From Craspedostauros australis (taxonomy: Eukaryota): DNA of 64,000 nucleotides. Positions within the stretch are counted from its first letter, which is position 1. Each line of letters begins with the position of its first letter. This document shows positions 3,001-63,815 of this stretch, piece after piece. The stretch lies in assembly GCA_030167865.1 (NCBI GenBank), contig JALAGF010003307.1, positions 1 through 64,000 on the forward strand, given 5' to 3'. Below the pieces are notes generated by a model, which saw only the letters and a list, made by a program, of their open reading frames with translations, was not told the origin of the DNA and did no database searches. The position numbers and the translations under genes were made by a program.

Positions 3001-3849
3001 CAATTCGCTGCGTTCTGGAGTCGGATGTGTCTCGCCATATACTTCGGCAAGTACGAATTTGCGGAGATGCTCTACGAGAAGATGGTGGCAGGCAAGCTTG
3101 TGTCAACGGATGCCGCCATACAAACAATGATCATCATGTTTTGTGGATTGATGGCGTCCAATCGGTACCGGAAAACGAAGCAGAAGAGGTTCATGAAGAT
3201 ACTCCGGCAGAAGAAACAGGAGCTCAAGAAGATATGTGACGAGAAAGGCAATTCTGCGATCAACCGCTACCTTCTGCTCCGGGCCGAGATGAAGTCGATC
3301 AAGTCAAGTGCTTCGTTGCCAACCTATATCCGGAATTGCTACGAAGCGTCCATAGATGGTGCGGAGCGAGCGGGCCAGCTACACGAGGCCGGGTTGGCCT
3401 GCGAATTGGCAGGCGAGCATGTCTTGACATCTAGCGTCGATAGCAATGATCTGGCGCGGCCATACTTCACGAAGGCGATGGGGTTCTATCAGGCTTGGGG
3501 TGGTGTCGCCAAGTGCGCCGACTTCCGCAATAGACGTGGCGAGTACATCGATGAAGATCAGGTGAAGAGAGGCGGGTGGAATGGAGTCGGCGGAGGCAAA
3601 GCATTTGCTTTCGAGATTCGTGATAAGACGAAAGCCAGCTTCGACATGTTGTCTGTGTACACACCAACAACAAATACCATGGCCCGGACATTTGCAGGCG
3701 CGAAGTCAGTGCAGCAAGCGCCCACCTCACCGAATGGCATGGGCGGAACTCATGTAAGCGCCGGTAGCAAGGGTAGCAGAGCGGCCGGCAGCGGTACCAA
3801 CGATGATGACGACGATGATGATCATTCTGCGTTGAGCGATCTATCGTAG
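1..3849 (+). CDS. STAND-class P-loop ATPase (AAA_16/COG3899-like) with C-terminal helical/TPR-like region; probably 5'-truncated by the window edge
   Basis: Walker A GGSGTGKS, KGKFEQ..PYSAI, Walker B LVLVLDDLQWA, TKGNIFH (GxP-like position), YRFAHDRIQQAA and C-terminal ACELAG...YQAWG. The frame is open back to base 1 (HAFDQ before ATG 16). Confidence 0.85.
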   Translation, partial: HAFDQMMTQGKQRGASASTTPEATPTLTSTPMPTSTSNPSIPAAFVWGGSGTGKSHLVDTFCERISNERRSDGVNVHIIKGKFEQHQKNDPYSAITQAFSDWCSSLLLSTAGKGSDKQNGMANSKQSISWGDGTNDNTHMNTPANTSLKRLRTRVKASQMTSEQAELLQTFIPPLSILFNDGADAQQFGSGTQSQSQAQPHPNSRTSQMPNNDTAWNTFQYAFVQFLTAISSKACPLVLVLDDLQWASQDSMNLLSTLLHRPHFLWMGTIRQEYNPHSHDELLDPDASLPFMKLLDEMRQGQPQDLPAVATPGVDTAISLALPYVSVQLANFTRQELHDWVSQLFRQSDNETTSHELASGHSHDHSEAKEEEEDARDEYTIDLINSIVDFLFKQTKGNIFHAVQLLQDMEQNNELTYSRISFQWELNSDLNANSDASRNTLPGDSRDVLHLVTSKLRALSVEMQRVLAIASYIRSSFDVSLLQAVLDHEQNHSHSHGHVHEDIFESIDANAHVIAGANACESTDDASKNQKHRSLFALLEQAVLEDLLHNSIGATTYRFAHDRIQQAAHDLVPFGETRTKLRLRIGQCLWGLCTSAESSMANQGTPGHGGVHASIANDTGLMFIAAEHLNCVPDKDHLRTMQRNLRTGEHALQMTALVPAATYLQIAATALRKLKCDPWQSHYDLTLRLLRGRCDVELLLGNYEQGYSIGEEVLKHATALIDKLPTYDAMARALAKEGKHQKSLQMSKKCAQMCSLYPKRGILLRGLRQLVSLRSYFRRTSDEEFLENATVITDPQTLLPISLLRQLTARTLLCNDTKAWLLTVTRLVDITRRVGICGECANAMVSFAMIHNKLGEYTNARRYVELAKKIIRKVGENNRYTSFVYYLAASFIDQYSKPPAEVASDFQYSYSSAMSKGEFEIGILAHYGYIFHAFNQGYPLGGLLPAIDSVFEQMKMYKMNGHFESITEYTSAPRKIAGALPIDWQECMDWKKYENSAFRFQFAAFWSRMCLAIYFGKYEFAEMLYEKMVAGKLVSTDAAIQTMIIMFCGLMASNRYRKTKQKRFMKILRQKKQELKKICDEKGNSAINRYLLLRAEMKSIKSSASLPTYIRNCYEASIDGAERAGQLHEAGLACELAGEHVLTSSVDSNDLARPYFTKAMGFYQAWGGVAKCADFRNRRGEYIDEDQVKRGGWNGVGGGKAFAFEIRDKTKASFDMLSVYTPTTNTMARTFAGAKSVQQAPTSPNGMGGTHVSAGSKGSRAAGSGTNDDDDDDDHSALSDLS

Positions 3850-21187: not shown

Positions 21188-24100
21188 CTAGCGCTGGAGG
21201 TTCTGGTCTTCGGACAGCCACTGGCGCAGTGACGAAGCAATGGCCAAAGTGTCCTTGTGCTCCGGCCCGAAAATCGCGGTGTACATGTCCAGCGCCTCGC
21301 GCAGATGCGCGATGGATTGATCGTGGCTGTTTTCTGCGTTCTGCTGGCGGAAGATGGTCGCACATTTGATGTGGGCCTTGGCCTTTTCGGTGTGCGAGGC
21401 AGCCGGGCTGTCGTCCTTCACTTCGCGGAGCAAGGTCATGTACGCCACGAGGGCGCCTTCGTTGTCGCCGATCTTCAGCTTGAGCGATCCGATTCTGCCC
21501 AAGGCCGCGATCAAGTGCTTGTGCGCGGTGTTCTTGCCGTCCACTGGTTTCGATGCACCCTTGTGCAGATCGGCCAGCGCGCTCTCGTACTCGCGCAGTC
21601 CACGGACGCCGTCCTCGTAACATTCGATGGCAGCATTCAGATCTCCCTTCTTCGACCGGATGGAAGCGATGTTGAGATTGATCAAGGTCACGTCGTATTT
21701 GCACTTGATTTCGAATTCCGGATCGCGGATGAGCTGGGCGGGCACGGCGCCGTACGTCGCCTTCGCAGCCTCGTAATGCTCCAGCGCCTCGTTCATCTTC
21801 CCGTGCTTGGCGAGGAGGATGGCGTACGAGTTGATAGTCTTGGCAACAGGGACGCAGTGGCTGCCGTTGACTGTGCGTCTCATGGAGATAACTTCTTCGA
21901 ACATGGATTGGGCCTTCTGCATGTCACCGAGATCCACCAGCAACGACGCGAGGCTTTGCGCGTTGGCGATGGAGTTGAAGTGCAAGGTTGCGTTGCATGC
22001 TTCGTAAATACGAGCCGCTTCGGCAAACTTCAACAGTGCCACGCGCGTTTCGCCCAGCTTGACCAACGCCTTGGCGACAGAATGCAAGGCATCGGCGACG
22101 TTGGTGTGGTAAGAACCAAGGACGCCCTTGTAAATTCCAACGGCCTCCTCCAGTCGCAGCATGGCATCCTTCGGCTGTCGGGCCTTCAGCAGACCATCGC
22201 CCACCGCGGCCAAGCACATTGCCATTCCGAGAGAATCGGACGAGTTGCCCTCTCCCTTCATGTTGGCAACTCTGTAGACCTCGTCGATCAAGAGCCTCGA
22301 TCCATCGCGAACGACTCCGTTGACGTCGAATTTCGTTGTCATGTGCGTCGACGATCTGTCCACACCATTCGATCCGTTCTTCGACGATGCAGCTGCTGCC
22401 GAATCCTTGTGGTCGATGGTGATGGGAATGGTGATGTTGCTACCAAGGCGTCGCAGCTCTTGCAAATCCGCAACGTGGCGACCGCTGGCCTCCACAACGC
22501 CGAGGGCCTGCACTCGCCGTCCGATGAAGTGTGCATCTGCGAGGACCTCGCCTGCGACGGTGAACGCCTGGCATTGCATGAGATGCGATGGGAGGAAGGC
22601 GGTGAGATACTCCTCCATTCGACCGCCACCTGGTAAGGCCAACACATCGAGCTGGCCGTTCTTGAGCGCTTCTGCCACGGATCCAGTCTGCTCCACGTCG
22701 TCTCCCATGTTGAGGAGCGACGACACGACGAGCTTGTGCGCTGCGTCGTGCTGCATGCCACCCCGTGGGAGTGGCGCTGTGAATTGCTGCGTGAGGAAAC
22801 GCAGTGGTGCACCCCAAAGAGAGCTGGATTCCTTGCTGAACTCATTCTCTTCTTCGATTTTGGACAGGTACGAGGTGAAGTTATCGGCATCAGGCGACAG
22901 CGTTGGCGTGCTGCGTTGCCCCATCTCTTCAGCCACCGCCTTCAGGGAGTCGTGCATGACGAAGAATTGCTGGATGCCAGAGTAGCGACGTGGCTCGATG
23001 TCATCGTCCCAGTCCGAGTCGGATCGTTCCGATTTGTCCCGCTGGTCACCAGCAGCGGATGGGCTGTGCGGCAACCGCAGCGTCCCGCGCGATGAACACC
23101 CATGTCTGGCGCGTTCGATCAGATTCAGCTTTTCCAGCAACGACAAAATCTGGCTCCCGGACGTGTCCTTGAGGCCTTCGTCCGATGCGATGATGGTGCG
23201 AAAGACGCGCAGGACGACCGACTGCGGTATTCCCTTGCCTGCTAGCATCCAGTCATTGTTGCGGAAGGCCATGGCGAACGACACGAAGCACCGTCGGAGG
23301 GCCACGCGGGTGCGCACTTCGCTGATGGTGAAGAAGCTGAGGTCGACCACGCGATTGACAGCGTTCACAAAACTCCGCAGCTGAGACGCCTCCTCGAGAT
23401 TGAGGCGGCACTGGTGGATGAGCGATGACCAGGCGGGCGACGAGATGTTCCAACTTCGGTTGCTTTGCCTCAGCATGCTGCCTGAGATTCGCACGGCAAG
23501 GGGCGAATTGCCGCAGCCCTTGACGATTAACTTGGCTTGGTTGAAAACGGCCGAGTTCTTGCCACCGTATGGACGTCGTCCAGACGTGGACAGAAGCAGC
23601 TTGACCGCTTCGTGCTCCGAGAGGATGCGAACGAACACTTCCTGCACGAGGCCTGGACCGAGAAGGTTTGGCGTTCTGGTCGTGATGAGGATTCGAAGAG
23701 GGTGGGGGTCGTCGCCCTTCTTGCTGCGTTGTGGTCGCAATCCGTTCAGTATCTTGTTGTCAAAGATGAACCATTTGGCATCCTCCACTCTGCAGACATC
23801 GTCGAGACAGATGAGCACCTTTTTCCTGATGATGAGCCGACCCAGATCCTCCTTGATGGCTTCGATGTCCCCGCCTTGGAATCGTCGCCGGCTTGCCGCC
23901 AGCTGCGCGATGCGTTGTTTGCGGGCGTCTGACTTCGACCCGTTCTGCGCTTGGGTGTCGCCGTTGGAGTGCGAGGTGTTTGATGGAATGGCCGAGTTGC
24001 CTGCGCCTCCAGCGTTGCCGTCACCATTTTCTTGCGACAGCTCGTTGGCCTCCTCGAGGATGTCGTCCAGATCGGCATCCTTCAAGATGAGCTGCCTGTA

Positions 24101-26257
24101 AAGCTCCTCGTAGAGTCTGCGAACATCCCTCTCCGTCAGCGGGCCACGCCCCAGCTTGATCCAGCCGATGCCATCGCAAAACCTCTCGCGGATCTCCACC
24201 GTCTGGATCGCGGCAACAGCGAGGATTGTCTTGCCGTTGCCTGCCTTGTCGCCGTGCCTGGATGTGATCGATGTAACGATGGAGTTGTTCGGTGTTCCGT
24301 CGTCAGCCTCGCGCATGGACTCATCCATCAGACAGCTCACCACCTGCTTCATCAGGCGATGCCGGTGGATATACTCTATCGGCAGCTTCGGAACGGCGGA
24401 TGGGATGTCCGCCTTCGGTCTCCAGTCCGGCTTGAGCTCCTTGAGATCGTTTTCCTGGTTGGCTTCCCTGTTCTTCATCTTCTCTAATCTGAGTCCGCGG
24501 ATGACGTCCACGAGCTCGTCCTTTGGCTTGATGGCTTGCGCCTGCTGTTGCTGCACGGGTTGGCTCGGTTTACTGGCTGAGGCTGTGACGAGGCCGTTGG
24601 GTATGGCACCTTGCGGTTCCACCTGCGTCTTTTGCACTGCCAGGCTGCCTGCTCCGGTCGGGTTGGTCTGCGTGGAGAATCCATCCTCCGCGGCTCCTCC
24701 CGCCGATTTGGTCGTGTCTTCCTCCTTGGAGGAACGGCGGTTTCGTAGGGTCGGTGTGGGCGTTGCTCTTCTGGCGCGCACCCTGCCCGCGGCTGGCAGG
24801 AGCTGACGACCACGGCTGAATACGCTTCCCCTACCTGATGTGTCCGCAGTGGAGACGCTGGATGCGTCGCTGTCCGAGTCCATCGCGGAGTCGCTGCTTT
24901 CGCCCCCGTCGAAGCCACCTTCCGTGACGGCACCGACCGCCTTCTCTACTTTGTCGTTCCATGATTTGATGCGCTCGATGTTCTTGGCGTTGTTGGGGGA
25001 CGGTAGACGGAAGTTGAGCTGGTAGCGACGCTCACGGATGACAAGCATGTCCTCCAGCACCTTGTTGCATTTTTTGATGACGTCGCGCAGTCCCTTGAAA
25101 GTGGTGTCATCCTTGAGCACACCTCGGGTGGCGTTGTCCACAGCCACCTCGTCGACCAGAGCCAGAAGCTGTGCATGTGCGGGTGGCATTTGCGAGAGGA
25201 GTGCATGGAGAGCAGAGTAGAGCAGAGCAAGTATTTTTAAGGCAATGATGTGATGGATCAAATGTGTGAGACGGGAGAATAACGCTGATCGCTGCGATAG
25301 ATGATGCTATGTCATCGGCGGGCGTACAAGGATAATGTGATGCAACACCAACATTTATCACATGGCACAGAGCAGTATGAAATCTTCGTTCATGTGATCC
25401 AATGCAGCGTGGTGCAATGCGATGAAGTGCAATGGCTTGTGGTGTGGTGCGCGTGTTCCAAGATGATGAATGGATGATGCATGATGAATGGATGATGCAT
25501 GATGAATGGATGATACATGATGAGTGGTGCATGATGGATGAATGATGGACGGTTGCATACAACTTACGAAATCAATGTTGCCAATGAACTCCCACAGGAC
25601 CATTCTGGCATTGAACTCCGACTGGCTGAGGTTCTCAGCACCCTCCTCGCCTTCTTTCTTGGGTTGAGTGGGAGTCTTCCCGACCGCAGCGTAGGCATCC
25701 TTGAGTCCGACAGCCAGCTCGTGGAACCGCTTGAGATTCTGCGGCGCCTTTCGCGGCAGCTTGGATGTGGAGCCGGGTGCCTTCTGATTGTAGTAGTCAT
25801 CGCTGCGGCAGGATCTGACGGTGATGATGATGTCCGGCTGATCGTCGTCGTCGCCTGAATCCCTCTGTCGGCGACTGGCAGACCTCGATCTGGAGCGGGA
25901 CAACGATCGCAGGCGGCGAGCAAAGCCGCCCTTTTTCTTCTTTTTGGACTGCCTCTCGCTGGTGGTGCTGGCCGAGGTGCTCGTGCTTGCGGTGCTGCTG
26001 CCGCCGCTGCGCTGGGCCCCGGCCTCGCTCCTGGACCGACGGCGCTCCGCATCGCTGCGGTCGCTGCGGCTGTCCCTGGAGACCTGCGAGGCGTCGTCTG
26101 CCGTGACGGCATCGCTGGGCGTCGTCCCAGACAGGATGCTCGCCTGCTCCGACGATTCGCTGCGATCCTCCTTCTTGGAGCTGCTCTTTCCGAAGCCATT
26201 CATGAGCCGGCGGATGGAGCTCCCGCGCTTGGACTTTTCCGGCTTCGATTCCGACAT
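21188..26257 (-). CDS. NLR-like NB-ARC (STAND) ATPase with N-terminal helical domain and C-terminal TPR array; exons 26257-25568 and 25168-21188 (~1556 aa)
   Basis: P-loop GDKAGNGKT, Walker B LICLDDV, sensor ILITTR, CGNSPLAV (GxP), VMHDSL (MHD) and kinesin-light-chain-like TPRs. Phase-0 intron TTC|GTAAGT...CACAG|CTT. Confidence 0.85.
25463..25516. repeat. 18-bp tandem repeat ATGATGAATGGATGATGC x3 (intronic)
   Basis: Two exact copies and one with a single mismatch, inside the predicted intron 25169-25567. Confidence 0.9.
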
Positions 26258-52575: not shown

Positions 52576-54033
52576 ATGGAGGATGAGGCACAGCCAACGC
52601 GTCACTTCCACTGCTACCTGCTGAAAAGCGACGATCCCAAGCATCCCATCAAGACGTACGTCGGCTTCACCACCAACCCACACCGGCGATTGCGGCAGCA
52701 CAACGGCGACTTGAAGCACGGCGGCGCATTCCGCACCAGGAAATCCGGACGGCCATGGAGATTCGTCGCCATCATTCATGGGTTCCCCACGCAAAAGTCG
52801 GCTCTGCAGTTCGAATGGGCCTGGCAGCACTGCGATGGATCCATCGCCGTGCGAGGGCGGTTGGGCCGCGACTATGCCAAGACCATGAAACGCAAGCGCG
52901 GTGCTGTCGGTCAGCTGGCGATCATGCACATGCTCTTGACGCATTGCGTTCAAGAGATCTGCGGTTGCTCTCACCTCACCGTGTACTTCTTCGAGCAGCA
53001 GTACAAGACACGGGTCCTCAAACTGATCGAGTCGGATCGGCAATTCTTTCCCCAGAGCATCGAACTGGAAGTTGCGAGCCATCTATCCGAGTTACCATTT
53101 ATGAAACAGCATGCAAAACGGACGAGAAAGCCCAGCAGAGCAGGTCTAAGGAATGATGAACAACCCGAAGAGTCCCCACGAGTACGTGCGCCAATGCCAG
53201 TGCCCGCACCGAGGCCTGCAGCCGTTGACAGAGCACAAGCCGGGGGGTGCCCACTGCAAGAGCAACCATGCACCAGCAGCATCCCTACCAACGATTGCAT
53301 GTGGTGCCGTCGTCCGATCCGTGCAGCGGAGGAGATTGGTGCCACTGTCTGTGATTTTTGCGGCGAGATGATGCACGAAGTTTGTTCCGACATTCACGCG
53401 GAAAATCAGAGTGGAATGTGCCCATCGTGCAAAGCGCCATTCGGCTCCAACGCGGACGATACTAGCATGGATGAAGATAGCGATGGCGCAGATTTCATGT
53501 GGCTTAATGCTGCCTGCTGTTCTCACAGCACGGATGCATCTGAAAGCACTTCGAGAGACGCTATTCCAGAAGTCGTCGAGGGGTTGCCACAAACGTGTGA
53601 TACTGAAGCACAAATAGAAGCAGCAGCAGCAGGAGATGATGAAGAAAAAGATGATGATCATGATGATGATGAAAAAGATAACATGAATTATCCACCGTGG
53701 CAGAGTCATGCAACGAGCAGTGCTCACCCACAACACCCAAGAACAGCAACGGCATCACCAAAACCAACACCACGGTCGCGAGTACCAGCAGTAGCACTAG
53801 AACGAGCACAGGAAGGCCGCAACGCTCCGGCAGTGACAGGACCGCACGAAACAAATCACGATGACCAATCAACCAACAGCGACGTCAGTTTCAATCCTCT
53901 CTTCATGATGCAGGACGACACTGACGAAGACAGCGATGGAATGTTCCACGGCGCCCATCAACAGCCGATCGGGCAGACAAGTATCCATGAACACGTCACA
54001 TGCAGCAACCGAGAAGTGATTGAACTAGACTAA
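52576..54033 (+). CDS. SLX1: structure-specific endonuclease SLX1 (GIY-YIG plus RING/PHD-like finger)
   Basis: CYLLKS..TYVGFTTNPHRRLRQHNG..GGAFRT..RPW..HGFP..ALQFEWAWQH. Finger CMWC..CDFC..HEVC..CPSC. Confidence 0.92.
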   Translation: MEDEAQPTRHFHCYLLKSDDPKHPIKTYVGFTTNPHRRLRQHNGDLKHGGAFRTRKSGRPWRFVAIIHGFPTQKSALQFEWAWQHCDGSIAVRGRLGRDYAKTMKRKRGAVGQLAIMHMLLTHCVQEICGCSHLTVYFFEQQYKTRVLKLIESDRQFFPQSIELEVASHLSELPFMKQHAKRTRKPSRAGLRNDEQPEESPRVRAPMPVPAPRPAAVDRAQAGGCPLQEQPCTSSIPTNDCMWCRRPIRAAEEIGATVCDFCGEMMHEVCSDIHAENQSGMCPSCKAPFGSNADDTSMDEDSDGADFMWLNAACCSHSTDASESTSRDAIPEVVEGLPQTCDTEAQIEAAAAGDDEEKDDDHDDDEKDNMNYPPWQSHATSSAHPQHPRTATASPKPTPRSRVPAVALERAQEGRNAPAVTGPHETNHDDQSTNSDVSFNPLFMMQDDTDEDSDGMFHGAHQQPIGQTSIHEHVTCSNREVIELD

Positions 54034-54442: not shown

Positions 54443-54459
54443 TACTCCAGTGGGCATCA
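54443..54459 (+). repeat. target-site duplication, left copy TACTCCAGTGGGCATCA
   Basis: Exact 17-bp direct repeat of 62801-62817; flanking bases differ on both sides. Confidence 0.95.
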
Positions 54460-54627
54460 ATAAATAAAAACGCAAAGATTAAACCCTCTTATGAGGCTGC
54501 GCCGAAGGCGCTTTTCTCCGCCTCCTTTCAACTTCGCGCCTGGCGCGAAGGGAGCACGGAATCCATAGATTGCTCTGTCGTTGTACGTATGTATGTATGT
54601 ATGTGTGCGTGTATGCGTCGCTGCCTT

Positions 54628-57600
54628 CTAGCTGGGTTCCGGGTTCACATGCCTGCACTGTAGCCATCGGAAGAGGACGCCTGTGGCGGCCGCCTCACCC
54701 AATTGCCGTGCTGCTTGCTCCACCCACACCGCAACCTGTGCAACTTGCGCCTCTGCTGCCGGAGCCGTCTGCAAAAGTCGTCGATAGGAATCTGGGTCTT
54801 TCTCGAGGCGAAGCCGAAGTGATGTAGCCCTTTCGTGGAGGGCGTGGACCATTTCGGACTCGGCCGAGCTGTCACCCTGGAACATGGCGTCATTTCTGGC
54901 CGACCAGTGCTCCCAGGCGATGTGCCATATTCGCCGGACGACCTGTTGTGCCCATGTCGGAGCTGTTCGCCGGGTCTTCTGCTGCTGTAGGAACTGCTGT
55001 TGGATCGCTATCCATTTCGACGACAGGATGCCCTTCCGCAACGCTTGCGGGCCTACCGACTCCTGACTCACGGCTGCCTCGTGGAGAGGACTACCGGGAG
55101 AGGACATCTGCAGATATGTGGACCCTTCCAGCTGACTCCGTAGCATTGTCAACAGCAGCGTTGTGACCGCCGGCGCCGTAGGGTAACGTCGCAGCCATCC
55201 CCCGAGCTCTCGAAGACGCCGCTTCGAAACTCCAAGTCGATCCGCTCCAGGGCAACGCCAGAAATGGGTCGCATCTTCCTGTCTGCCACAGCTAGGACAC
55301 AGGTCGGACTTCCGTAACCCCCACTGCTTCATGCGCTTGCCCACTGGCGCCTCTCCGGTAACAAGCTTGACCGTAAGAAGCCGCCTGACCTGATCCAGCT
55401 CTCGCAAGGACCGGCCGACGATCTCCCACTCGACCTGTTCCGGCCGCCGTACCACACCTCGTTGCCCAAGGACGTGAACCATGCCTTCGCATAGTGGACC
55501 TCGCGACACAGCCGAGTATGTTATCCTGGTGATTTTCCCAAGCGAGACGAACGATACGTGCTCTCCGTTTATGTGCCCACTGTGGACCTCGCTCACCGGT
55601 ATCGACTCTCGCGCGATGCGGGCCAACTTGTCAGCCACCACATTCATGCGTGCCCACCGGTCTAGGTTGCCCCATCCGGCGTCGTCGTCCTGATGGCCTT
55701 TCACATGCCGTCCCTGTACTGTAATGGGTATCGTGCTGCTCAGTGTTCGTACCGCCCTCTGCAAGTCGGCATCCGTGGACTTGGGGGACAGAGCCCACTC
55801 GTGATCCAGGGCTTTGAGAGCCCCCAGGTTGTCACATCCAAGAACAATGGCGCCGTCGACGATCCCGTAGGCCATGCATATGGCATTGAGCATCACCAGC
55901 ACTCCGTATATTCCAGCCAGTTCCGCCCGCTGCGATTGCATGACTTCGTTTGTCGCTGGTGCCAGGTTGAGGACAAGTAGCTGTGCTCCGCGTCCTTCAT
56001 GATCGGCCAGAATGATCGCCCCAGACGCTCCTTTCCCTTCCGCCACTGAGCCGTCGCTGCAGGCTACTGCCGAACCTATCCGTATGGACGCCGCTATCGT
56101 TTCCCATTCACCTGCCTTTTCGTAGCGCTGCACTGACCATTTTGCTGACTGTGGCATTTCGCGCAGTAGTTGATCCACTGTCGCCTCGTCGGCGCGCACC
56201 GCCTGCAAGCCTTCACCAGCTCCCGTAACCACTATCCGATCTCCTTCCGTGTAGCCATCGATAATATGCGTTGTCATTCCCACTGCACCATCGGATGGCT
56301 CGTAGAGTTTGGCGCGCCTTCGCCGCGGAACCCGCCGGAGACAGAACTCGGGTTGCTCGCGCCGCATGAGACGATCGCTTCCCGGATCCCATAGAACCGC
56401 CGGCACCTGCGATGAGTACTGCCTCCACTTGCCCAACGGACGGGCCAGCCGGGCGACTCTTGTCCTGGAGACTTGAAACAGCCTTCGAACGACTTGGCCC
56501 CACTGCCTCCAGTTGGCCGGACTTACTGATCCTATCGGTGGCCATGCCATTCGGGATGTTCTGAGCGGGATGAGTTCCGGACTCTCCGCTGCCGGGTGGA
56601 GGTGTTCTCCATCTACGCACGTGACATCCGACATCCAGAAGACTCGCTTTTTGATGCGGCACAGGTTGATGGCCTGCTCGACTTTCCTGTCGAGCTTGAG
56701 GGCTCTGACGCGCTCCATGATTGGCGCATCATGTTCTCGAGGGGCATGCAGTATCCTTTGCTCCCACTGCACTGTTACGCCCACCCTTGCTGCTTCCTGC
56801 CATACCGCCTTCATCCACGAGTCCGTCGCTAGATGTTCCCACCGCGCTGGGTCCTGTTGGAATACCTCTGGCATCCCCACCTGCAACGTCATGATCTCCA
56901 GTGAGGTCCTCATGAGCTTTCCAGTGAGGGTGTGCTGCCCCCAGTGCCTTGCGAGCATCTCGAGGTGCTTTGCCACCTGCACGTAGTAGAGGTGTTGCAC
57001 GCCCAATCCAAAACGCTCGAGAGGGCCAAACACTATCCTTCGCGACATATTGCGTTGGACTCCAGCCGCTGGCAACGCTGCCTGGAGCACCGGCCTCATG
57101 ATTCTCTCTGTGGCCTCCTTCGTGAATGTGGAACTGGTCAAAGGATACTCCAGAGTTTTCCAGATGGTGGCCTTCATGGCGATCCACGCGTGTGTTCTTA
57201 GCATGCGACTCCGCCGCACCTTGTCTGCCCACTTCTCCGCTTTCCCGGTGTAGTATGCCTCGTTGTCGTCTTGCACGCCGTCGTGCCGAACCATGACTCC
57301 CAGAGCTTTCCTGGCTTGGTCCACTTGCAGTCTCAAAAGGGTAGCTCTTTGCTGACTGTCGGGTTGCCGGATATTGATGTCTCCTGGCTGTTCGTCGATA
57401 CGTTTGTACTGCCATTGATTCCCGTCCCACTTGAAGACCATGAGGTACCAGTAGCTTTTGCTGGGCTCCAAAGCACCCCCTGTCGCTCTCAACATTCCTT
57501 CCCACGAGTCCACAACCCGTTGTACTTCCGCCGTGCATGCTTCGGGATCGTCGACGTCCGCTTGGACCGAGTGAATAAGGTCCGTATCGTCCACGAACGA

Positions 57601-60096
57601 AAAACACACGAGTTTGGTCGTCTCTGCCGTGATGGGACTCGTCGCGCCGAACCCGTAGCCTTTGGCTGCCATCGCTTGCATGATTGGAGAGCTCATGGCC
57701 ACCCATCCAGCCGGCGATATACCAAGACCTTGTAGCAAACCCTGCAGCTTTGTGCCACGTCGCGGATATGTTCTGGACGATTTTCCGAATCCGGTGAGAA
57801 CGTGGTGCTGCATGGACTGAATGGCGGAGGTGACACTGCGGCTCACCGTGGTTGGAACGCCGAGACGCTGCATGCTGAGTTCTAGCGGCACGTGAGCCAT
57901 TCGATCATAGCAACTTTTTGCGTCGTTGGAGCATATGCAACTGGGCGCAGCCGTCATCCTCACAATGTCATCCGTCATCCGGTTGTTCAGGCTGACTTCT
58001 GCCGCACTTCGCTGCTTGCGGCTGCCGTATTGCTCCTCGGGCAGCATCTGGTGCTTCTCTGCATGCTTCATCATCACTTTGCCTATCCATTTCAAGTTGG
58101 CGTTGAAATCCCCTTCCACCAGGCTGATGGTTCGAAATCTGGAGACTCGGAAGTTGCCGGGTTCCTTCAGCAAGGTGATATCCGTGCATACTAGCCACCG
58201 CTCCAGGTTGTAGCCCGTTCGCAGTGAGATCTCCCGCATGGTGGCGTCGACTTGCGCTAGCTGCTCGCATTGCGCGTTGGCTTTCCACAGGCCGAAGTGT
58301 AAACCCGACGGCCCAGAAGTTGTCTTCTCTCGTGCCTTGGCCCACAGTCGCTGATGGCTTTCCAGCGTGACGTCCATGTCGGATTCCTCCCACGGTATGT
58401 TGTTCGTTGGAGCCAGAGCTTGAATCAAGGCATCCTCGTGCTGCCCCAGCCTGTGACCGTAGCGCCGCTTGATGCCCTGCGCCCCTCCTTGCCTCATTTC
58501 TCTTTCCATTGCTGAGTTTTGCAGGGGAGTCACATATGCCTGCCGATACTTCGCTTCGTTCGCCTTCATACATTGTGCTATGACCGCATGTTCTTTTTCG
58601 AAGACCTCTTCCTCTCCTTCCGCGTTGTTGGCAATCACCATCGTTACTTTGCCGCTGCTGTGTTCACCAATTGCTGCTCGGATAGCTCTGAACGTTTCCA
58701 CCACCTCCTCGCGCTTCTGGATGGTTGTTATTGCCGCTTCCGACGTGATGTTCCCGGCCTTGGCCATTTCTTCTGCCCTGGTTTGCAGGAATGTTTGTCT
58801 GTGTTTCAGTGCGTTCTTTTTCGCCGTCTTCCATCGTGCGTGCGCTCGCTTTCGCTTATCCTCTAGTTCATCCATGTTGAGCGTGGCCGTCCTCGTAGTG
58901 ATTCCTGCTTGCTTTTTGGCTCTCTCGTACCATCGCGAGCTTACTTTCTTGCCTCTCCTTCGCTTCCACGCCAGGTTCCAAAACTGCTTCTCCATCGCCC
59001 TGCGTTTGACCTCCGGAGAATATGGAACTTGCCCAGTGTATATTGTGCGTGCTCCTCTTTCTGCCTGCAGCATGATGCTCATTCTTTCTCGATCGATGGT
59101 TTCCATTGCGGTTGCTTGCCCTGTAGTGATTGTGTGTGCTGCTCCGATGGCTGCTCTGAGCGCCACTAAGCGTTGCGGGATCCTAGCTTGTTGGTACTGC
59201 TTCCGAACCTCGGCCTTGTACTTTCGAACCGTGATTGGTCGGTTTAGCTGTACTCTCCGCCCTTCGAATTTGGGAGTCGGCTTGCTGATAGATCCAAATA
59301 TCGATTCTTGAGATATCTCAATCCACGCCGTTCTGTGGTCCCACATTCCAAACTCGCTGTATCCTGCGCGTATGACTTGTACCGATGCTGGCACCCATAT
59401 GCCGTCGATCACCCTGTTCGAATTCGCCCTCACATTTGTTGATATGCCTGGGGCTTGCGGGTGTCGACTGAGGATCGCCTCCTTCATGTGCTGGCGGTCC
59501 ATCATGGTCGCCATTTGGGAGCGAACCACCGGCATGTTAATATCACCTCCGACAATGACTGCCTCTCCGTCTTGCCTCCATTCCTGGATGGCTGCTTCCA
59601 AATCTTGGATTAATAGCTCGATGGGAGCAGTGTCGATGCCTTGGGACTCCAACCACAATGCCTGCTGATTATAGACTGTGCCAGCGCTCTGACCCCCCTT
59701 GTTGGGGACATAAACGCTCACAAGTCGCACCGTGGTGTCCTGTCTGCCTCTTATGGCCATGCTTGTCCACCTTCCCAGTTTGCGGGGATCGTTGGCCAGA
59801 CTCTTGTATCTGCCTGCAACGTTTCCGATGATTACGCATGCCGTGCCTCCCCACTGTCGAATTCCACCAAGCTTCTCTCTTTCGTTGTATGCCAGAGCGT
59901 GCCTTTCTGTATGCACGTGTTTGTTTGCTCTCGCTTTCCACGAGTTCATCTTGCCCACCTTGGACCAGTTGACTCCTATCTCTGATAGCAAGGCCACGTC
60001 GAATTTCTTCTGCTTGACCCATTGCCACAGATCGTCGTTCTTCCAATGTTTCGATTCCGCCTGCAGGCACCCCACGTTAAGAGCTGCTATTCTCAA
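54628..60096 (-). CDS. LINE ORF2: AP endonuclease, reverse transcriptase, RNase H, CCHC zinc finger (TTG start in the track; frame open from 60318)
   Basis: APE: LNVG, LLSE, SVYVP, GGDIN, IDGIW, DH. RT: SGPSG, FRTISL, QYGSR, NDAKSCYD, QGLLQG..SP, FVDD, KALGV. RNase H: SDGS, RAEL, CDN, HVKGHQD, N..AD.LA. Finger: CPSC..ED..H..C. Confidence 0.93.
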   Translation of the reverse strand: MRIAALNVGCLQAESKHWKNDDLWQWVKQKKFDVALLSEIGVNWSKVGKMNSWKARANKHVHTERHALAYNEREKLGGIRQWGGTACVIIGNVAGRYKSLANDPRKLGRWTSMAIRGRQDTTVRLVSVYVPNKGGQSAGTVYNQQALWLESQGIDTAPIELLIQDLEAAIQEWRQDGEAVIVGGDINMPVVRSQMATMMDRQHMKEAILSRHPQAPGISTNVRANSNRVIDGIWVPASVQVIRAGYSEFGMWDHRTAWIEISQESIFGSISKPTPKFEGRRVQLNRPITVRKYKAEVRKQYQQARIPQRLVALRAAIGAAHTITTGQATAMETIDRERMSIMLQAERGARTIYTGQVPYSPEVKRRAMEKQFWNLAWKRRRGKKVSSRWYERAKKQAGITTRTATLNMDELEDKRKRAHARWKTAKKNALKHRQTFLQTRAEEMAKAGNITSEAAITTIQKREEVVETFRAIRAAIGEHSSGKVTMVIANNAEGEEEVFEKEHAVIAQCMKANEAKYRQAYVTPLQNSAMEREMRQGGAQGIKRRYGHRLGQHEDALIQALAPTNNIPWEESDMDVTLESHQRLWAKAREKTTSGPSGLHFGLWKANAQCEQLAQVDATMREISLRTGYNLERWLVCTDITLLKEPGNFRVSRFRTISLVEGDFNANLKWIGKVMMKHAEKHQMLPEEQYGSRKQRSAAEVSLNNRMTDDIVRMTAAPSCICSNDAKSCYDRMAHVPLELSMQRLGVPTTVSRSVTSAIQSMQHHVLTGFGKSSRTYPRRGTKLQGLLQGLGISPAGWVAMSSPIMQAMAAKGYGFGATSPITAETTKLVCFSFVDDTDLIHSVQADVDDPEACTAEVQRVVDSWEGMLRATGGALEPSKSYWYLMVFKWDGNQWQYKRIDEQPGDINIRQPDSQQRATLLRLQVDQARKALGVMVRHDGVQDDNEAYYTGKAEKWADKVRRSRMLRTHAWIAMKATIWKTLEYPLTSSTFTKEATERIMRPVLQAALPAAGVQRNMSRRIVFGPLERFGLGVQHLYYVQVAKHLEMLARHWGQHTLTGKLMRTSLEIMTLQVGMPEVFQQDPARWEHLATDSWMKAVWQEAARVGVTVQWEQRILHAPREHDAPIMERVRALKLDRKVEQAINLCRIKKRVFWMSDVTCVDGEHLHPAAESPELIPLRTSRMAWPPIGSVSPANWRQWGQVVRRLFQVSRTRVARLARPLGKWRQYSSQVPAVLWDPGSDRLMRREQPEFCLRRVPRRRRAKLYEPSDGAVGMTTHIIDGYTEGDRIVVTGAGEGLQAVRADEATVDQLLREMPQSAKWSVQRYEKAGEWETIAASIRIGSAVACSDGSVAEGKGASGAIILADHEGRGAQLLVLNLAPATNEVMQSQRAELAGIYGVLVMLNAICMAYGIVDGAIVLGCDNLGALKALDHEWALSPKSTDADLQRAVRTLSSTIPITVQGRHVKGHQDDDAGWGNLDRWARMNVVADKLARIARESIPVSEVHSGHINGEHVSFVSLGKITRITYSAVSRGPLCEGMVHVLGQRGVVRRPEQVEWEIVGRSLRELDQVRRLLTVKLVTGEAPVGKRMKQWGLRKSDLCPSCGRQEDATHFWRCPGADRLGVSKRRLRELGGWLRRYPTAPAVTTLLLTMLRSQLEGSTYLQMSSPGSPLHEAAVSQESVGPQALRKGILSSKWIAIQQQFLQQQKTRRTAPTWAQQVVRRIWHIAWEHWSARNDAMFQGDSSAESEMVHALHERATSLRLRLEKDPDSYRRLLQTAPAAEAQVAQVAVWVEQAARQLGEAAATGVLFRWLQCRHVNPEPS

Positions 60097-60238
60097 TACC
60101 GAACTGCTCTTTGTACGAGGGGAGTCGCCCCAGTGCCGATCGTGGAGGTTGTGCCCTTCCTGGCGCCCTTCCTCCGGGGTTGCATCCGTTAGGCTTGCGG
60201 GGGTGGTTGGTGATGCTTCTCCTGCCCCCAGCCTCGCT

Positions 60239-62671
60239 TTATTCTTGATCCTCGCCCCTACCCTTGCTTGAGGCAGGTGGCGTGGCCGCGGACGCTTCCA
60301 GTTGGGCGCGCAGTGCCGCTATGATTGCTTCTTGGTTGGTGATCGTGCTCGATTGTTCTTGCATTCGGACTCGAGTCGCCGCCAACTCTTGTGCTTCTCT
60401 TGCCATCTTCATTGCTTCTTCGATTTCCGCTTCGATTTCATCTGCCTCTGTTTGAGATTCCGGTATGGTGTATCGTGACGAAGCTGCCGACTTGCCGTAT
60501 TCCGTCCCAAAAGTTTTGAAACTCTCGTCCTCCAGCCTGGCCTTCTTTCGCTTCGGGGATGCGCTCTCGCTCTCCATGAAGTCGATGCCTTCGATGACGA
60601 CATTTCCAAACCCTTCGTCCAAAAGGAAGTCCATTTCTTCTTCAGTCTCGACGTCCACATATTCCCCACTGTCATCCTTTATCATGGAGCAACTCATTGC
60701 CACGATATCTTCGGAGAACCACTTGTTCGTGGATGCGTTGATTTCCGTAGAACACCTGATTGCGATTGTGTGGATGAGCCCTACCGCTTGCGCGTAGCGT
60801 TCCTCGAAAGCCACGATATGGATCGCGTCTTCTTTACCATCTGCCATGTGCGTTGTGCTGACGTCATGGATGAGAGGATTGCCTTCGCTGGTTTGCTGCG
60901 CCAGGAACTCCCGAAGAGTGATGGTGCCCGACTCTGGATCCTTGGTGTCCAACGCGAAGTCACCTTTGAGCTGTTCGTACTTCAGTCTGCGCACGTAGCT
61001 CTGATGTTTCCGGATCATGGCTTGAACTTTCATCGCCGTCTTCGCTCCCATAACCGACGTGCCTGGTTTGGGCACGTATCTGTAGTTGAGGCCTTTGCGG
61101 TCGCCATCCTTGGTGTTGAAGATTTTGCCCAGGAGCTTTGATGCCCTGCGCGCGTCTTTCACATCCGCATGTAGATGAAGTGCCATCCATGGAGCATTGT
61201 GCCAGCTTCCGCCGTTTTGCAAGTGACTTGCCTTCACTTCCTCGGACACCTTTCCCACGAACTTCACCCTGCCGCCGACTTTGAGCTTGGCTCTCTTCTC
61301 TGCCAATAGCTGATTTATGACTGTTAGAGTTTGTTTCGCTTTTGTGAAGTTACCGGAGTAGGCCATGAAGCCTATCTCGGTCGTGTGCTCCGCATCACGC
61401 AGATCTTGGATGTAGGCGTACTCGCCCTCGTGGTACGCACCCTCAAGCTCTGTGTTCCAGCTTGTGAATGCTTGCATGTCAATGTTCGAAGACATCAGGA
61501 CCTGCAAGTATACGTCCTCGCTTTTCGATGTTGGGTTGGCTCTGCCGATGTAATACCGGAGATCCTTCCACATAGCGGGAATGTCTGAGTCGGTGATGAT
61601 GCAGCCCTTGGCCTTGTTCTTCTTGTACCATGGGCTGATTGTCAAGCTTTGATCCATGCCTTTGGCTTCGTCGTACCATTGCCGAAAGCGTTCCTGGAAA
61701 TCCCTCACTGGCGTTTTTGTGCCTTTGGGGATTTTGAGGCGCATTTCGAATCTCTCGTAGTATCGGCACTTTGGGTTCGACATCTGAGGTTTCTTTTTCT
61801 GATGCTTGGTCCATCCGTCATCTTTGGTCTCATTGTTGTTGGAGTTTCCGTCGCTGTCTGTTGGCTCCCTTGCTACGCTTGGGTTTCCATCCTTGTCTCG
61901 TGGCGCTGGCGAGTCGATCTTCGTGCTTGTGGTGTACGCCGTCAGATTCGCTTGCTTGAGCGGTTTCTTCGACACCAAAGCTACGAGATCATAGCTGTCG
62001 TCGTCGCTGTCGACCGTCATCGCGTCTGCTCCCGAGTCCACTTCCGGTGGAGGTTTCTCTGCCATGTATTGGCACCCCATGTAGTTGGTTGCTGCCGCCC
62101 ACAGAATTGTCATCTGGTTTGCTATCATGACAGCCCCTCCTGGCTTTATGGTGTCTGTGAAGCATTGGACTGGGTCTGTGAGCGAAAGATCAGCGATCAA
62201 TTGCTTGATGGCTACTCTGGACGGATCGTCTGGTGGAACTTTGGATTTCCCCAGTTTCGTGGTACGCCCGTCCATGACGGTTTGGAAGAAGACTGTCATT
62301 TCCTTGATCTTCGGCATGCTTGCTGACACCATCGATGTATCGGTCTTCTCCCACATGGCTTTCTTGGTGAGTGCCTTCTTGACTTGGTTGTGCATTGATC
62401 GTTCGCCTTCCCCGTACTTCTCGCCTGGTTCGAATCCCTTTGCCTGGTGTGCGATCGTGTCGCTGAGTTTTTTCCACCGCGCTGTGTTCGGATCTTTCCA
62501 CTCTGTGGCTACTTCTCCTCGTTTCTCCATCAATTCTTCCTCGCTGAGGCTCGGATTTGGCTTGGGAGGTGGCTTGGGAGTTGTGGTTTGCACCGCTGGT
62601 CCTTGCACCTCGGCCATCTCGACGTCATCAGCTTTGTCCTCCATGATCCTGACATGTTTGGTTGCCTTCAT
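60239..62671 (-). CDS. LINE ORF1 protein (810 aa) with C-terminal coiled coil
   Basis: ATG-started intact ORF inside the TSD-bounded element, directly upstream of ORF2. Heptad-like EAEIEEAMKMAREAQELA...IIAALRAQLE. No CCHC knuckle seen. Confidence 0.88.
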   Translation of the reverse strand: MKATKHVRIMEDKADDVEMAEVQGPAVQTTTPKPPPKPNPSLSEEELMEKRGEVATEWKDPNTARWKKLSDTIAHQAKGFEPGEKYGEGERSMHNQVKKALTKKAMWEKTDTSMVSASMPKIKEMTVFFQTVMDGRTTKLGKSKVPPDDPSRVAIKQLIADLSLTDPVQCFTDTIKPGGAVMIANQMTILWAAATNYMGCQYMAEKPPPEVDSGADAMTVDSDDDSYDLVALVSKKPLKQANLTAYTTSTKIDSPAPRDKDGNPSVAREPTDSDGNSNNNETKDDGWTKHQKKKPQMSNPKCRYYERFEMRLKIPKGTKTPVRDFQERFRQWYDEAKGMDQSLTISPWYKKNKAKGCIITDSDIPAMWKDLRYYIGRANPTSKSEDVYLQVLMSSNIDMQAFTSWNTELEGAYHEGEYAYIQDLRDAEHTTEIGFMAYSGNFTKAKQTLTVINQLLAEKRAKLKVGGRVKFVGKVSEEVKASHLQNGGSWHNAPWMALHLHADVKDARRASKLLGKIFNTKDGDRKGLNYRYVPKPGTSVMGAKTAMKVQAMIRKHQSYVRRLKYEQLKGDFALDTKDPESGTITLREFLAQQTSEGNPLIHDVSTTHMADGKEDAIHIVAFEERYAQAVGLIHTIAIRCSTEINASTNKWFSEDIVAMSCSMIKDDSGEYVDVETEEEMDFLLDEGFGNVVIEGIDFMESESASPKRKKARLEDESFKTFGTEYGKSAASSRYTIPESQTEADEIEAEIEEAMKMAREAQELAATRVRMQEQSSTITNQEAIIAALRAQLEASAATPPASSKGRGEDQE

Positions 62672-62800
62672 CGTCGTTTTGGATTTCGTTCGTGTTACGT
62701 AGAATTCGCTGTAGATTTTGTACTGGTGTTTGTTGATGTGTTGTGTTTTGTTGTTTTACTAGTGTTATCGTTGTTTGAGTTTTTTCGGGTTCTGGTATTG

Positions 62801-62817
62801 TACTCCAGTGGGCATCA
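62801..62817 (+). repeat. target-site duplication, right copy TACTCCAGTGGGCATCA
   Basis: Exact match to 54443-54459. Confidence 0.95.
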
Positions 62818-62842
62818 CACCATACCATACCACTCGCAGAGC

Positions 62843-63815
62843 ATGCTGCTGCTGACAGGAACAAGACTCTTGGCATTCCAACAAATCACACACGGGCGCT
62901 CGGCTCCCATCCAACGACGTGTTTCCACCCAACTGAAAATGGCTTCGTCTTTGCCTTCGGTGTTCAGCCCTGACACTGGCGACCCTCTCTCTGGCGAAGA
63001 GCTGACGAACAAGCTCAAGAACAAGAGGGTGGCGCTGTACTTTTCGGCTGGCTGGTGAGTTCGTGAGGCATGCTTGGTCTGGACATCCAGTACACATCAG
63101 TGCTCCACACCCACTCCGCTTTATTCAGCTTCTTCTGCTGCACTCGTACGAATGCGAATACAGCGTTGTCGAAAAGAGGACTCAATGGGGTTTGCAAGTC
63201 GGAATACTGCAGTGACTGCTTGTACTACCATTCCATGGTCTATTATGCCTGTATTGCTCTTCCATTGCATTATATTACTATATTATATACAGTAGCAAGT
63301 ATTACTCCATATCTGTGCGCTCATCAATGTCATCCCATTTGACTCGACGCAACCTCCCCGTCCCTCTGTATCAACCGTCAACCGTCAACCACCTCGCATC
63401 GGGCTCTCCGGTTGCGACGATCATGGCCCTGCCCCGATTCATCAACCACAGGTGTCCGATGTGCACATCGATCGAACCAGACATCAAAGCGTTCAGGGAA
63501 TCGTCAGCGGCGGACGGAAAGCCGATCGAATTCATCTACGTCAGCTCGGACCAATCCGAGGAAGCTGCGTTGGAGCGTTCCAAGGCCCTTCAGATGATCG
63601 CGGTTCCCTTCTCAGAGGTGGACGCAATCAAGAAGCAATACAACGTCTGGTCCGGTCGCGAAGCTGCCAAGCTGGGTACAGACCGTCGCGCTGGCGTGCC
63701 CTCCATCGTCCCGCTGGACAAGACAGGCACCGAGCTTGCGTTCGTCGCCACGGAGTCCCAAGGCAAGAAGGCGCTCGATACGTGGCCTCTCGATGACAGC
63801 AACGGCATTTGGTGA
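62843..63815 (+). CDS. nucleoredoxin/tryparedoxin-like thioredoxin; exons 62843(or 62939)-63054 and 63452-63815
   Basis: KRVALYFSAGW|CPMC is reconstituted by the phase-2 intron TG|GTGAGT...CACAG|G. Also IEFIYVSSD, AVPF and GVPSIV. Confidence 0.88.

What the first reader, a model, noticed from the sequence alone, without database searches (positions are those of the whole stretch)
54443..62817. Intact, probably recently active Ambal-like LINE with a perfect 17-bp TSD
Seen: exact TACTCCAGTGGGCATCA at both ends, two uninterrupted ORFs (810 and at least 1822 aa), all APE, RT and RNase H catalytic motifs present, and no evident 5' truncation. Known: APE-type LINEs integrate by target-primed reverse transcription and create TSDs; diatom LINEs of this group are poorly characterised experimentally. 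Inference: a compact autonomous element with precisely defined ends, suitable for defining a family and testing target preference. The site sits between (TAT)n and (CCATA)n tracts.
Basis: partly seen in the sequence, partly recalled or inferred. Interest (0 to 1): 0.8.

Follow-up and report, generated by a model that had tools for sequence, protein, structure and literature searches.

The report
Diatom LINE with AUG-less second gene
This is an intact, young-looking jumping gene (a LINE retrotransposon) of a diatom whose enzyme gene lacks a normal start codon, and it probably gets made by ribosomes restarting right at the end of the first gene.

Summary
Confirmed: an 8,342-bp minus-strand LINE between exact 17-mers, with ORF1 (810 aa) and an unbroken ORF2 frame carrying APE, RT, RNase H and a CCHC knuckle; the host is a diatom. 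The TSD is real but not sequence-specific: 18 of 28 family 5' ends pair with a 3' end by different 15-20-nt repeats, and the 17-mer's last A is probably the element's first base. The first in-frame AUG lies 99 codons in, behind two catalytic residues, yet those codons are under purifying selection. The codon overlapping the ORF1 stop is AAG here, ATG or CTG in sister subfamilies. An AUG lies within 8 nt of the ORF1 stop in 23 of 37 metagenome relatives. Best reading: TPRT-mobile element translating ORF2 by termination-reinitiation at a non-AUG codon between two conserved hairpins, like SART1 and L1; untested. The copy looks young, but its nearest siblings are 90-95% identical. Empty allele, expression and Ambal membership by RT phylogeny could not be tested.

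The parts
54443..54459 (.). Target-site duplication, copy at the element's 3' end
   Evidence: family TSD survey
62801..62817 (.). Target-site duplication, copy at the 5' end; base 62801 is probably also the element's first base (A on the minus strand)
54460..62801 (-). Full-length LINE, 8,342 bp
62672..62801 (-). 5' UTR, 130 nt, 52% A, no AUG; the first ~15 nt are nearly invariant in the family (internal promoter inferred, not shown)
60239..62671 (-). ORF1, 810 aa, no Pfam family; acidic, probably coiled-coil C-terminal part (read from sequence)
60737..61768 (-). ORF1 core: three tandem alpha/beta sandwich domains; the middle one is RRM-like (best Z 6.6, fold level only)
   Evidence: AF2 model pLDDT 81.6
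60257..60277 (-). Hairpin upstream of the ORF1 stop; six loop bases invariant in 27 of 27 distinct copies (five of them set by the search anchor)
60244..60246 (-). AAG codon in the ORF2 frame, 5 nt before the ORF1 stop; ATG or CTG at this place in sister subfamilies; proposed ORF2 start (1,872 aa)
60191..60234 (-). Hairpin downstream of the ORF1 stop; contains an in-frame CTG (60231-60229), the rival start
54628..60318 (-). ORF2 reading frame, stop to stop, +1 relative to ORF1 and overlapping it by 80 nt; first in-frame AUG at 59949
59330..60099 (-). APE endonuclease; the conserved Asn (60078) and Glu (59982) of the first two motifs lie upstream of the first AUG
   Evidence: catalytic roles by analogy to L1 EN, recalled
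57442..58143 (-). Reverse transcriptase, FVDD motif (Asp at 57591 and 57588)
55570..56112 (-). RNase H with D 56055, E 55923, D 55833, H 55695, D 55632
55252..55299 (-). C-terminal CCHC zinc knuckle, invariant in 26 of 26 aligned proteins
   Evidence: zf-RVT in 9 of 26 members
54460..54627 (-). 3' UTR, 168 nt: short (CATA)n, two conserved stem-loops (54560-54517, 54511-54499) and a U-rich (TTTA)-like tail; no poly(A)
52576..54033 (+). Flanking host gene, GIY-YIG nuclease (SLX1-like by my reading); not part of the element
62843..63815 (+). Flanking host thioredoxin-like gene (intron inferred); first in-frame ATG 25 bp from the TSD; not part of the element

Best explanation
An autonomous APE-type non-LTR retrotransposon of a diatom. 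A bicistronic RNA starts at a fixed first base (internal promoter, inferred). ORF1p, an RRM-like RNA-binding protein (fold shown, binding inferred), is translated normally. ORF2p is made by termination-reinitiation: ribosomes stopping at the ORF1 UAA, which sits in a short unpaired gap between two conserved hairpins, restart nearby at a non-AUG codon. The likeliest is the AAG at -5, where sister subfamilies have AUG or CUG. ORF2p binds the 3' stem-loops and nicks DNA with little specificity, at or beside a T. The U-rich tail pairs with the nicked end, and reverse transcription usually runs to the 5' end, leaving a ~15-17-bp TSD with short microhomologies. Shown: anatomy, ends, TSDs, selection on the pre-AUG codons, 3' covariation. 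Inferred: every translation and integration step.
For: TSDs of different sequence in 18 of 28 5' ends, three more read by eye in the ATG subfamily. Pre-AUG endonuclease codons: pN 0.008-0.21 against pS 0.22-0.83 over 10 comparators, third positions variable in 88% of columns as in RT (91%), so they are translated. Codon at -5: AAG 24, ATG 5, CTG 1 of 30 own-genome junctions read, of 33 tried. In metagenome relatives an in-frame AUG lies within -8..+8 nt of the ORF1 stop in 23 of 37 loci with an assigned stop (ATGA 9, TAATG 7, -5 ATG 2, other 5), GTG at -5 in 4 more; by 60%-identity cluster 11 of 18, plus 1 GTG cluster. Synonymous change is suppressed in the first 49 codons (pS 0.28-0.40 against 0.73-0.75 for whole ORF2; 0 differences to L061 against pS 0.31), as expected for an RNA signal. 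An out-of-frame AUG at +56 (26 of 27 copies) would catch ribosomes scanning to later AUGs. Precedent: SART1 stop-start coupling needing a downstream structure (passages of PMC5972666, PMC10275272, PMC3894237) and AUG-independent L1 ORF2 translation (passage of PMC11485995). 3' stem: 3 of 8 pairs change on both sides, 100% of cells paired, 0 of 500 shuffles reach the covariation score.
Against: No RNA, ribosome or protein data. AAG is among the weakest near-cognate starts (recalled). The nearest metagenome relatives with a readable junction (L130, L135, L159) are also +1 and AUG-less, but have ACA or CCG at -5, so the -5 rule is not general; 10 of 37 loci have neither a near AUG nor GTG at -5. 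The third base of the -5 codon is fixed by ORF1's last codon, so a near-cognate there is not rare by chance. The window junction folds no better than shuffles (z -1.23), and neither does the 3' end alone (z -1.57). Two AAG subfamilies (L062; L065, L067, L068) have an in-frame Met at codon 50, just before the first endonuclease strand, which could serve them; the window copy does not. Related copies inflate the covariation control.
Confidence: 0.7

Rival explanations
1. Same element, but ORF2 starts at the CUG 10 nt after the stop, or by an internal, IRES-like entry set by the junction structure and independent of ORF1 termination, possibly without regard to codon identity.
For: The CTG is present in all spanning rows shown in the alignment, with a purine at -3 in 24 of 27 copies and G at +4. 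AUG-less relatives lack a near-cognate at -5. PMC3894237 (passage) raises IGR-IRES-like entry as a possibility for LINEs.
Against: The CTG is paired at the base of the downstream stem, which alone explains its conservation. Its 30 of 30 count is circular, because the search anchor required it. Most relatives put AUG at the stop itself.
Confidence: 0.14
2. A programmed +1 (or -2) frameshift gives an ORF1-ORF2 fusion protein.
For: The frames overlap by 80 nt and ORF2 is +1 throughout the own-genome clade and its nearest kin. One decayed copy (C2431) is fused by a 1-nt deletion.
Against: The codon before the stop varies (GAA, GAC, GAT; GCC, ACG in kin), and none lets the P-site tRNA re-pair at +1 (inference). 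I saw no slippery run. The ORF2 frame opens only at -38 in the CTG subfamily and -23 in L130, which excludes a shift upstream of the hairpin. The sister subfamily has AUG at the site.
Confidence: 0.08
3. A 40-nt GT-AG intron (60261-60222) removes the ORF1 stop and joins ORF1 to ORF2 in frame.
For: The window sequence allows it in frame, and the acceptor AG is present in 25-26 of 27 copies.
Against: The donor T is present in only 11 of 27 copies. The intron would be purine-rich and very short. No assembled copy seen lacks it, although spliced RNA would be retrotransposed.
Confidence: 0.04
4. The AAG subfamilies make no functional ORF2p, or only a truncated one from the AUG at 59949, and are moved in trans by the ATG subfamily.
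For: An ATG-start subfamily with similar 5' and 3' ends exists in the genome.
Against: ORF2 is under strong purifying selection inside the AAG clade (dN/dS 0.11 to L061; 0.02 in the pre-AUG segment). The 13-row AAG clade is the larger one.
Confidence: 0.04

Closest known systems
Ambal clade of diatom non-LTR retrotransposons (Repbase; definition recalled from Kapitonov and Jurka 2009, not seen)
   Same: Diatom host, two ORFs, ORF2 with APE, RT and RNase H. Ambal is listed as a Repbase clade (passage of PMC5753468) and as a repeat class in a diatom genome (passage of PMC12803021).
   Different: RT clade not tested against a named Ambal sequence. 8.3 kb is shorter than the >10 kb I recall, uncertainly, for the founding elements. 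No description of Ambal ORF2 initiation, ends or TSDs was found in the library.
SART1 (silkworm, R1 clade) UAAUG translational coupling
   Same: Overlapping ORF1 stop and ORF2 start with RNA structure downstream. The same TAATG overlap occurs in 7 of 37 metagenome relatives.
   Different: Here the frame is +1, the overlapping codon is AAG, not AUG, and a hairpin also lies upstream. SART1 is telomere-specific (recalled); this element is not site-specific.
Mammalian L1
   Same: APE-RT-CCHC ORF2, RRM-type ORF1, TSD near 15 bp (recalled), ORF2 translation that can be AUG-independent.
   Different: RNase H present; ORFs overlap instead of a 63-nt spacer; U-rich tail and conserved 3' stem-loops instead of poly(A); copies mostly full-length, whereas about 7,000 of 500,000 human L1 are (passage of PMC2881922). 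The RT segment found no L1 ORF2p chain in the PDB at E<=10. In L1 the natural codon is AUG.
Stringent-type LINEs with 3' stem-loops and short-repeat tails (L2/CR1 type; recalled)
   Same: Conserved, covarying 3' stem-loop and a short-repeat tail.
   Different: Different ORF2 architecture and family; recognition of the stem by ORF2p is untested.

Membership tests
APE-type non-LTR retrotransposon | ORF2 with N-terminal APE and RT, no LTRs | tested here: met
   ends unrelated to each other
APE-type non-LTR retrotransposon | Variable-sequence TSDs around dispersed copies, fixed 3' end | tested here: met
   18 of 28 5' ends paired, all different
APE-type non-LTR retrotransposon | Retrotransposition by TPRT | not testable with these tools
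   inferred from anatomy and TSDs
Ambal (features recalled) | Diatom host | tested here: met
   92 silicon-transporter matches in G000, best E 2.6e-247; 0 of 14 control genomes over the cut-off; atlas top cluster commonest taxon Bacillariophyta, phylum known for 1 member
Ambal (features recalled) | Two ORFs; ORF2 = APE + RT + RNase H | tested here: met
Ambal (features recalled) | RT groups with named Ambal elements against L1, Tx1, RTE, CRE | not testable with these tools
   no named reference; paper searches gave passing mentions only; the tree holds unnamed relatives only
Ambal (features recalled) | Length above about 10 kb (recall uncertain) | tested here: inconclusive
   8,342 bp here, 8.3-8.4 kb in uninterrupted siblings; the criterion itself could not be checked
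SART1-type UAAUG coupling | AUG overlapping the ORF1 stop | tested here: not met
   AAG at -5 in the window; met in many relatives
SART1-type UAAUG coupling | RNA structure downstream of the stop required for ORF2 translation | tested here: inconclusive
   hairpin predicted and conserved, synonymous change suppressed, z -1.23; requirement untested
RRM-type LINE ORF1p | RRM fold | tested here: inconclusive
   best Z 6.6, rmsd 3.1 over 87 residues to an RRM; below the Z 8 level; no Foldseek hit at E<=0.001
Sequence-specific LINE | Shared target sequence or microsatellite | tested here: not met
   18 different sites; only first T (15 of 18) and TA/TG (13 of those 15) shared

The most novel reading that the evidence does not exclude
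A widespread diatom LINE clade uses stop-start coupling in which the ORF2 start codon drifts freely in nature (AUG, GUG, CUG, AAG, or no near-cognate at all), because a hairpin-stop-hairpin RNA element sets the restart site. The window's lineage would make an essential 1,872-aa enzyme from a natural AAG start, and would also insert mostly full-length copies.
Probability: 0.45. Interest if true: 0.72.

Novelty: new variant of a known kind. Interest (0 to 1): 0.5.

Why it matters
How LINE ORF2 is translated is called an open question in the reviews read (passages of PMC3894237, PMC11485995). This family gives a natural allelic series (AUG, CUG, AAG at one homologous site, within one genome) and a compact 130-nt candidate signal that can be tested in a transformable diatom. 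It also defines, base-exactly, the ends, tail, 3' structure and TSD habit of a little-studied diatom LINE group. A compact, mostly full-length-inserting element with its own RNase H is a candidate tool for algal genetics. Gene callers that need AUG will cut the endonuclease off such elements. As a mere intact LINE with a TSD, the finding would be ordinary.

Tried and rejected
Empty allele and expression: no sequencing run was listed (this is no evidence either way), so no reads were laid. The right flank has one match in the assembly, itself; the left flank was not searched. First metagenome scan with the single protein: 25 pattern matches, none confirmed; the profile scan then gave 402, of which the best 80 were kept. 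TSDs in metagenome loci: most contigs end at or inside the element, so no reliable pair was found. A clade-wide statistical survey of hairpins around ORF1 stops was not completed, so the hairpins in distant relatives rest on eight folds viewed by eye. The iterative ORF1 profile drifted into ORF2 through a fused copy; only its ORF1-position hits were used for the alignment. ORF1: no atlas hit and no informative Pfam family among 40 members. RT segment against PDB sequences: no RT hit. RNase H segment by phmmer gave TAL-repeat rows with no single stretch passing, an artefact of summed repeats. Rfam: one chance match outside the element. Archaeal-type RNase H: the top fold match is archaeal (Z 17.0), but human RNase H1 scores 15.4 and the loop His is kept, so not claimed. 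Short 3' matches first taken for SINEs proved to be contig edges, interrupted copies or one amplified truncated copy. A two-step restart through the out-of-frame AUG at +56 was dropped: its mini-ORF ends at different places in different subfamilies (read by eye). Not in print, as far as searched: Ambal; ORF2 initiation; diatom LINEs. Repbase Reports and most subscription journals are not in the library, and one review could not be read. No supplements were opened. Earlier findings of this scan: three look-ups returned nothing.

Full report
Observation. The 17-mer lies exactly at 54443-54459 and 62801-62817 and nowhere else in the window at up to two mismatches; none of 100 shuffles gave two matches. 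Between them, on the minus strand, are a 130-nt A-rich 5' UTR without AUG, ORF1 (62671-60239, 810 aa), an ORF2 frame open for 1,896 codons (60318-54628) and a 168-nt 3' UTR ending in a U-rich tail, not poly(A). Pfam finds RT (E 1.3e-9) and, weakly, APE (E 0.0065); APE is found in 13 and RT in 19 of 26 aligned relatives. RNase H, missed by Pfam in this copy, folds at pLDDT 93 and matches RNase HI at Z 17.0, rmsd 2.8 over 136 residues. A CCHC knuckle is invariant in 26 proteins. The host genome has 92 silicon-transporter matches, so it is a diatom.

Family and ends. Searches of the own genome gave 43 matches for the 3' part (40 of 89 candidates scored) and 46 for the 5' part (40 of 42 scored); these are lower bounds. 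Ten near-full copies are 68-90% identical to the window copy, and 4 of the 10 keep both ORFs unbroken. Of 28 distinct 5' ends, 18 pair with one of 31 distinct 3' ends through a shared 15-20-nt repeat, 9 on one contig and 9 across contig breaks; all 18 repeats differ. Three more pairs can be read by eye in a sister subfamily. The base before the conserved 5' motif is A in 27 of 28 ends; in the 17 pairs with an intact start it is also in the target copy in 12 and absent in 5. So the A belongs to the element and usually meets a target A, a microhomology. The repeats begin with T in 15 of 18, followed by A or G in 13 of those 15; that T also fits the tail. The true duplication here is therefore 15-17 bp. 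No microsatellite or sequence target is shared.

Truncation. A 101-nt 3' query returned 40 places (of 76 candidates), 37 on contigs already seen. By my reading, 18 of the 40 are full-length by TSD pairing and one duplicates such an end. Eight are cut upstream by what look like LTR ends, and one TSD-flanked 5'-truncated copy of about 850 bp recurs on at least four contigs. The rest are unresolved or at contig edges. Full-length insertion thus looks common, unlike human L1 (passage of PMC2881922), but fragmented assembly and scoring caps limit the claim.

Age. The window copy differs from its relatives mostly at silent sites: 86 synonymous against 16 non-synonymous private codon changes in 1,622 ORF2 codons, and 60 against 18 in 633 ORF1 codons. 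Little neutral decay has followed insertion; I estimate at most about 0.5%. But the nearest pieces are 90.6-95.1% identical, so a burst by this master is not shown. A sister subfamily does have copies identical over 8.3 kb. No reads were listed and no second contig carries the right flank, so the empty site is untested.

The ORF2 start. The first in-frame AUG (59949) lies 99 codons behind the AAG at 60246 and behind the conserved Asn and Glu of the first endonuclease motifs (their catalytic role is recalled from L1 EN). These codons are translated: pN 0.008-0.21 against pS 0.22-0.83 over 10 comparators, with 88% of third positions variable, as in RT. ORF2 is +1 to ORF1. The ORF2 codon 5 nt before the ORF1 stop is AAG in 24, ATG in 5 and CTG in 1 of 30 junctions read, of 33 tried (the anchor required the TAA and the downstream CTG, so those two counts are circular). 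In 51 of 80 metagenome loci the endonuclease start was found, and in 37 an ORF1 stop could be assigned. An in-frame AUG lies within -8..+8 nt of that stop in 23 (ATGA 9, TAATG 7, -5 ATG 2, other 5), GTG stands at -5 in 4 more, and 10 have neither; by cluster at 60% identity the figures are 11, 1 and 6 of 18. The RT tree places the own-genome copies in one clade of 21 rows (support 100) with AAG, ATG and CTG branches; the nearest kin with a readable junction (L130, L135, L159) are also +1 and AUG-less, with ACA or CCG at -5. The stop sits between two predicted hairpins with some two-sided changes, and silent change is halved over the first 49 codons. The window junction alone folds no better than shuffles (z -1.23). 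An out-of-frame AUG at +56 in 26 of 27 copies argues against scanning to later AUGs. Two subfamilies have a Met at codon 50 that might serve them; the window copy has Val.

Mechanism. I favour termination-reinitiation at a non-AUG codon (0.70 for the whole model), with AAG at -5 the likeliest site. CUG or internal entry gets 0.14, frameshifting 0.08, a 40-nt intron 0.04 (donor T in 11 of 27) and trans-mobilisation 0.04. Precedents are SART1, with an overlapping UAAUG and a required downstream structure (passages of PMC5972666, PMC10275272, PMC3894237), and AUG-independent L1 ORF2 translation (passage of PMC11485995; PMC2881922). TURBS-type viral reinitiation tolerates mutated near-cognate starts at reduced rate. 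The primary papers were not read. For mobility, TPRT is inferred. The last ~110 nt are conserved across subfamilies, and the inner stem has 3 of 8 pairs changed on both sides with all cells paired; 0 of 500 shuffles reach the score, though related rows inflate this. This fits recognition of the element's own RNA. The ORF1 core folds confidently (pLDDT 81.6) into three alpha/beta sandwiches, the middle one RRM-like at Z 6.6, a fold-level lead only.

Comparison and novelty. It works like an APE LINE and meets the testable, recalled features of Ambal (diatom, two ORFs, APE-RT-RNase H). The defining RT grouping could not be tested: 277 and 6,202 relatives carried no Ambal name in the rows shown, and the library mentions Ambal only in passing (search listings 13, 17, 35, 78; passages of PMC5753468, PMC12803021, PMC11572971). 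Passages of PMC2806351 mention only RTE-like LINEs in two diatoms, and a 2025 diatom TE preprint has no whole-word occurrence of 'LINE' or 'non-LTR' in its main text. Searches listed no paper on ORF2 initiation in diatom LINEs or on a natural AAG start in a retrotransposon, within a library that lacks Repbase Reports and most subscription journals. The conserved AUG-less stop-start junction makes it a new variant worth testing. Interest 0.5.

Noticed in passing
window 62818-62845: The insertion lies 25 bp before the first in-frame ATG (62843; second ATG 62939) of a thioredoxin-like host gene, head to head with the LINE 5' end. It probably separates that gene from its upstream promoter region.
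   Followed up: no
L107, L108, L109, L233 (G000 C5392, C3432, C1236, C1235): A sister subfamily with CTG at the ORF2 start site has intact copies with identical RT; L233 and L108 are 100% identical over 8.3 kb. It is probably the most recently active branch.
   Followed up: partly
L204, L208, L023, L217 (also L205, L209, L210, L213): Several family copies are cut near their 3' part by what look like LTR ends; four share the same ~40-nt end at different positions, suggesting repeated nesting of one LTR family into this LINE.
   Followed up: partly
L219, L218, L220, L221, L222: One 5'-truncated copy of about 850 bp, with a 19-bp TSD carrying one mismatch, recurs with the same 3' flank on several contigs, so it was amplified as part of another repeat.
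   Followed up: partly
L002 and L061 (G000 C4820), L012 (C5017): The short (CATA)n of the 3' UTR (window 54590-54610) is greatly expanded in the nearest sibling, and an insertion sits at the same place in another.
   Followed up: no
L097, L106 (G000 C2431): A 1-nt deletion about 40 nt before the ORF1 stop fuses ORF1 and ORF2 in one decayed copy, which has a later in-frame stop.
   Followed up: partly
L130, L135, L159: Nearest metagenome relatives have a +1 ORF2 with no AUG before the endonuclease and no near-cognate codon at -5, and a strong predicted hairpin ending a few bases before the ORF1 stop.
   Followed up: partly
G000, genome-wide: 92 silicon-transporter matches, 11 of them nearly full length: an unusually large family, or uncollapsed copies.
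   Followed up: no
window 16-3849 (+) and 21188-25189 (-): Two NLR-like ORFs: AAA_16 + TPR, and NB-ARC + TPR.
   Followed up: no
window alignment to L061: Identity to the nearest full copy swings from 96% to 85% along the element, falling towards the 3' end, a possible sign of recombination between subfamilies.
   Followed up: no
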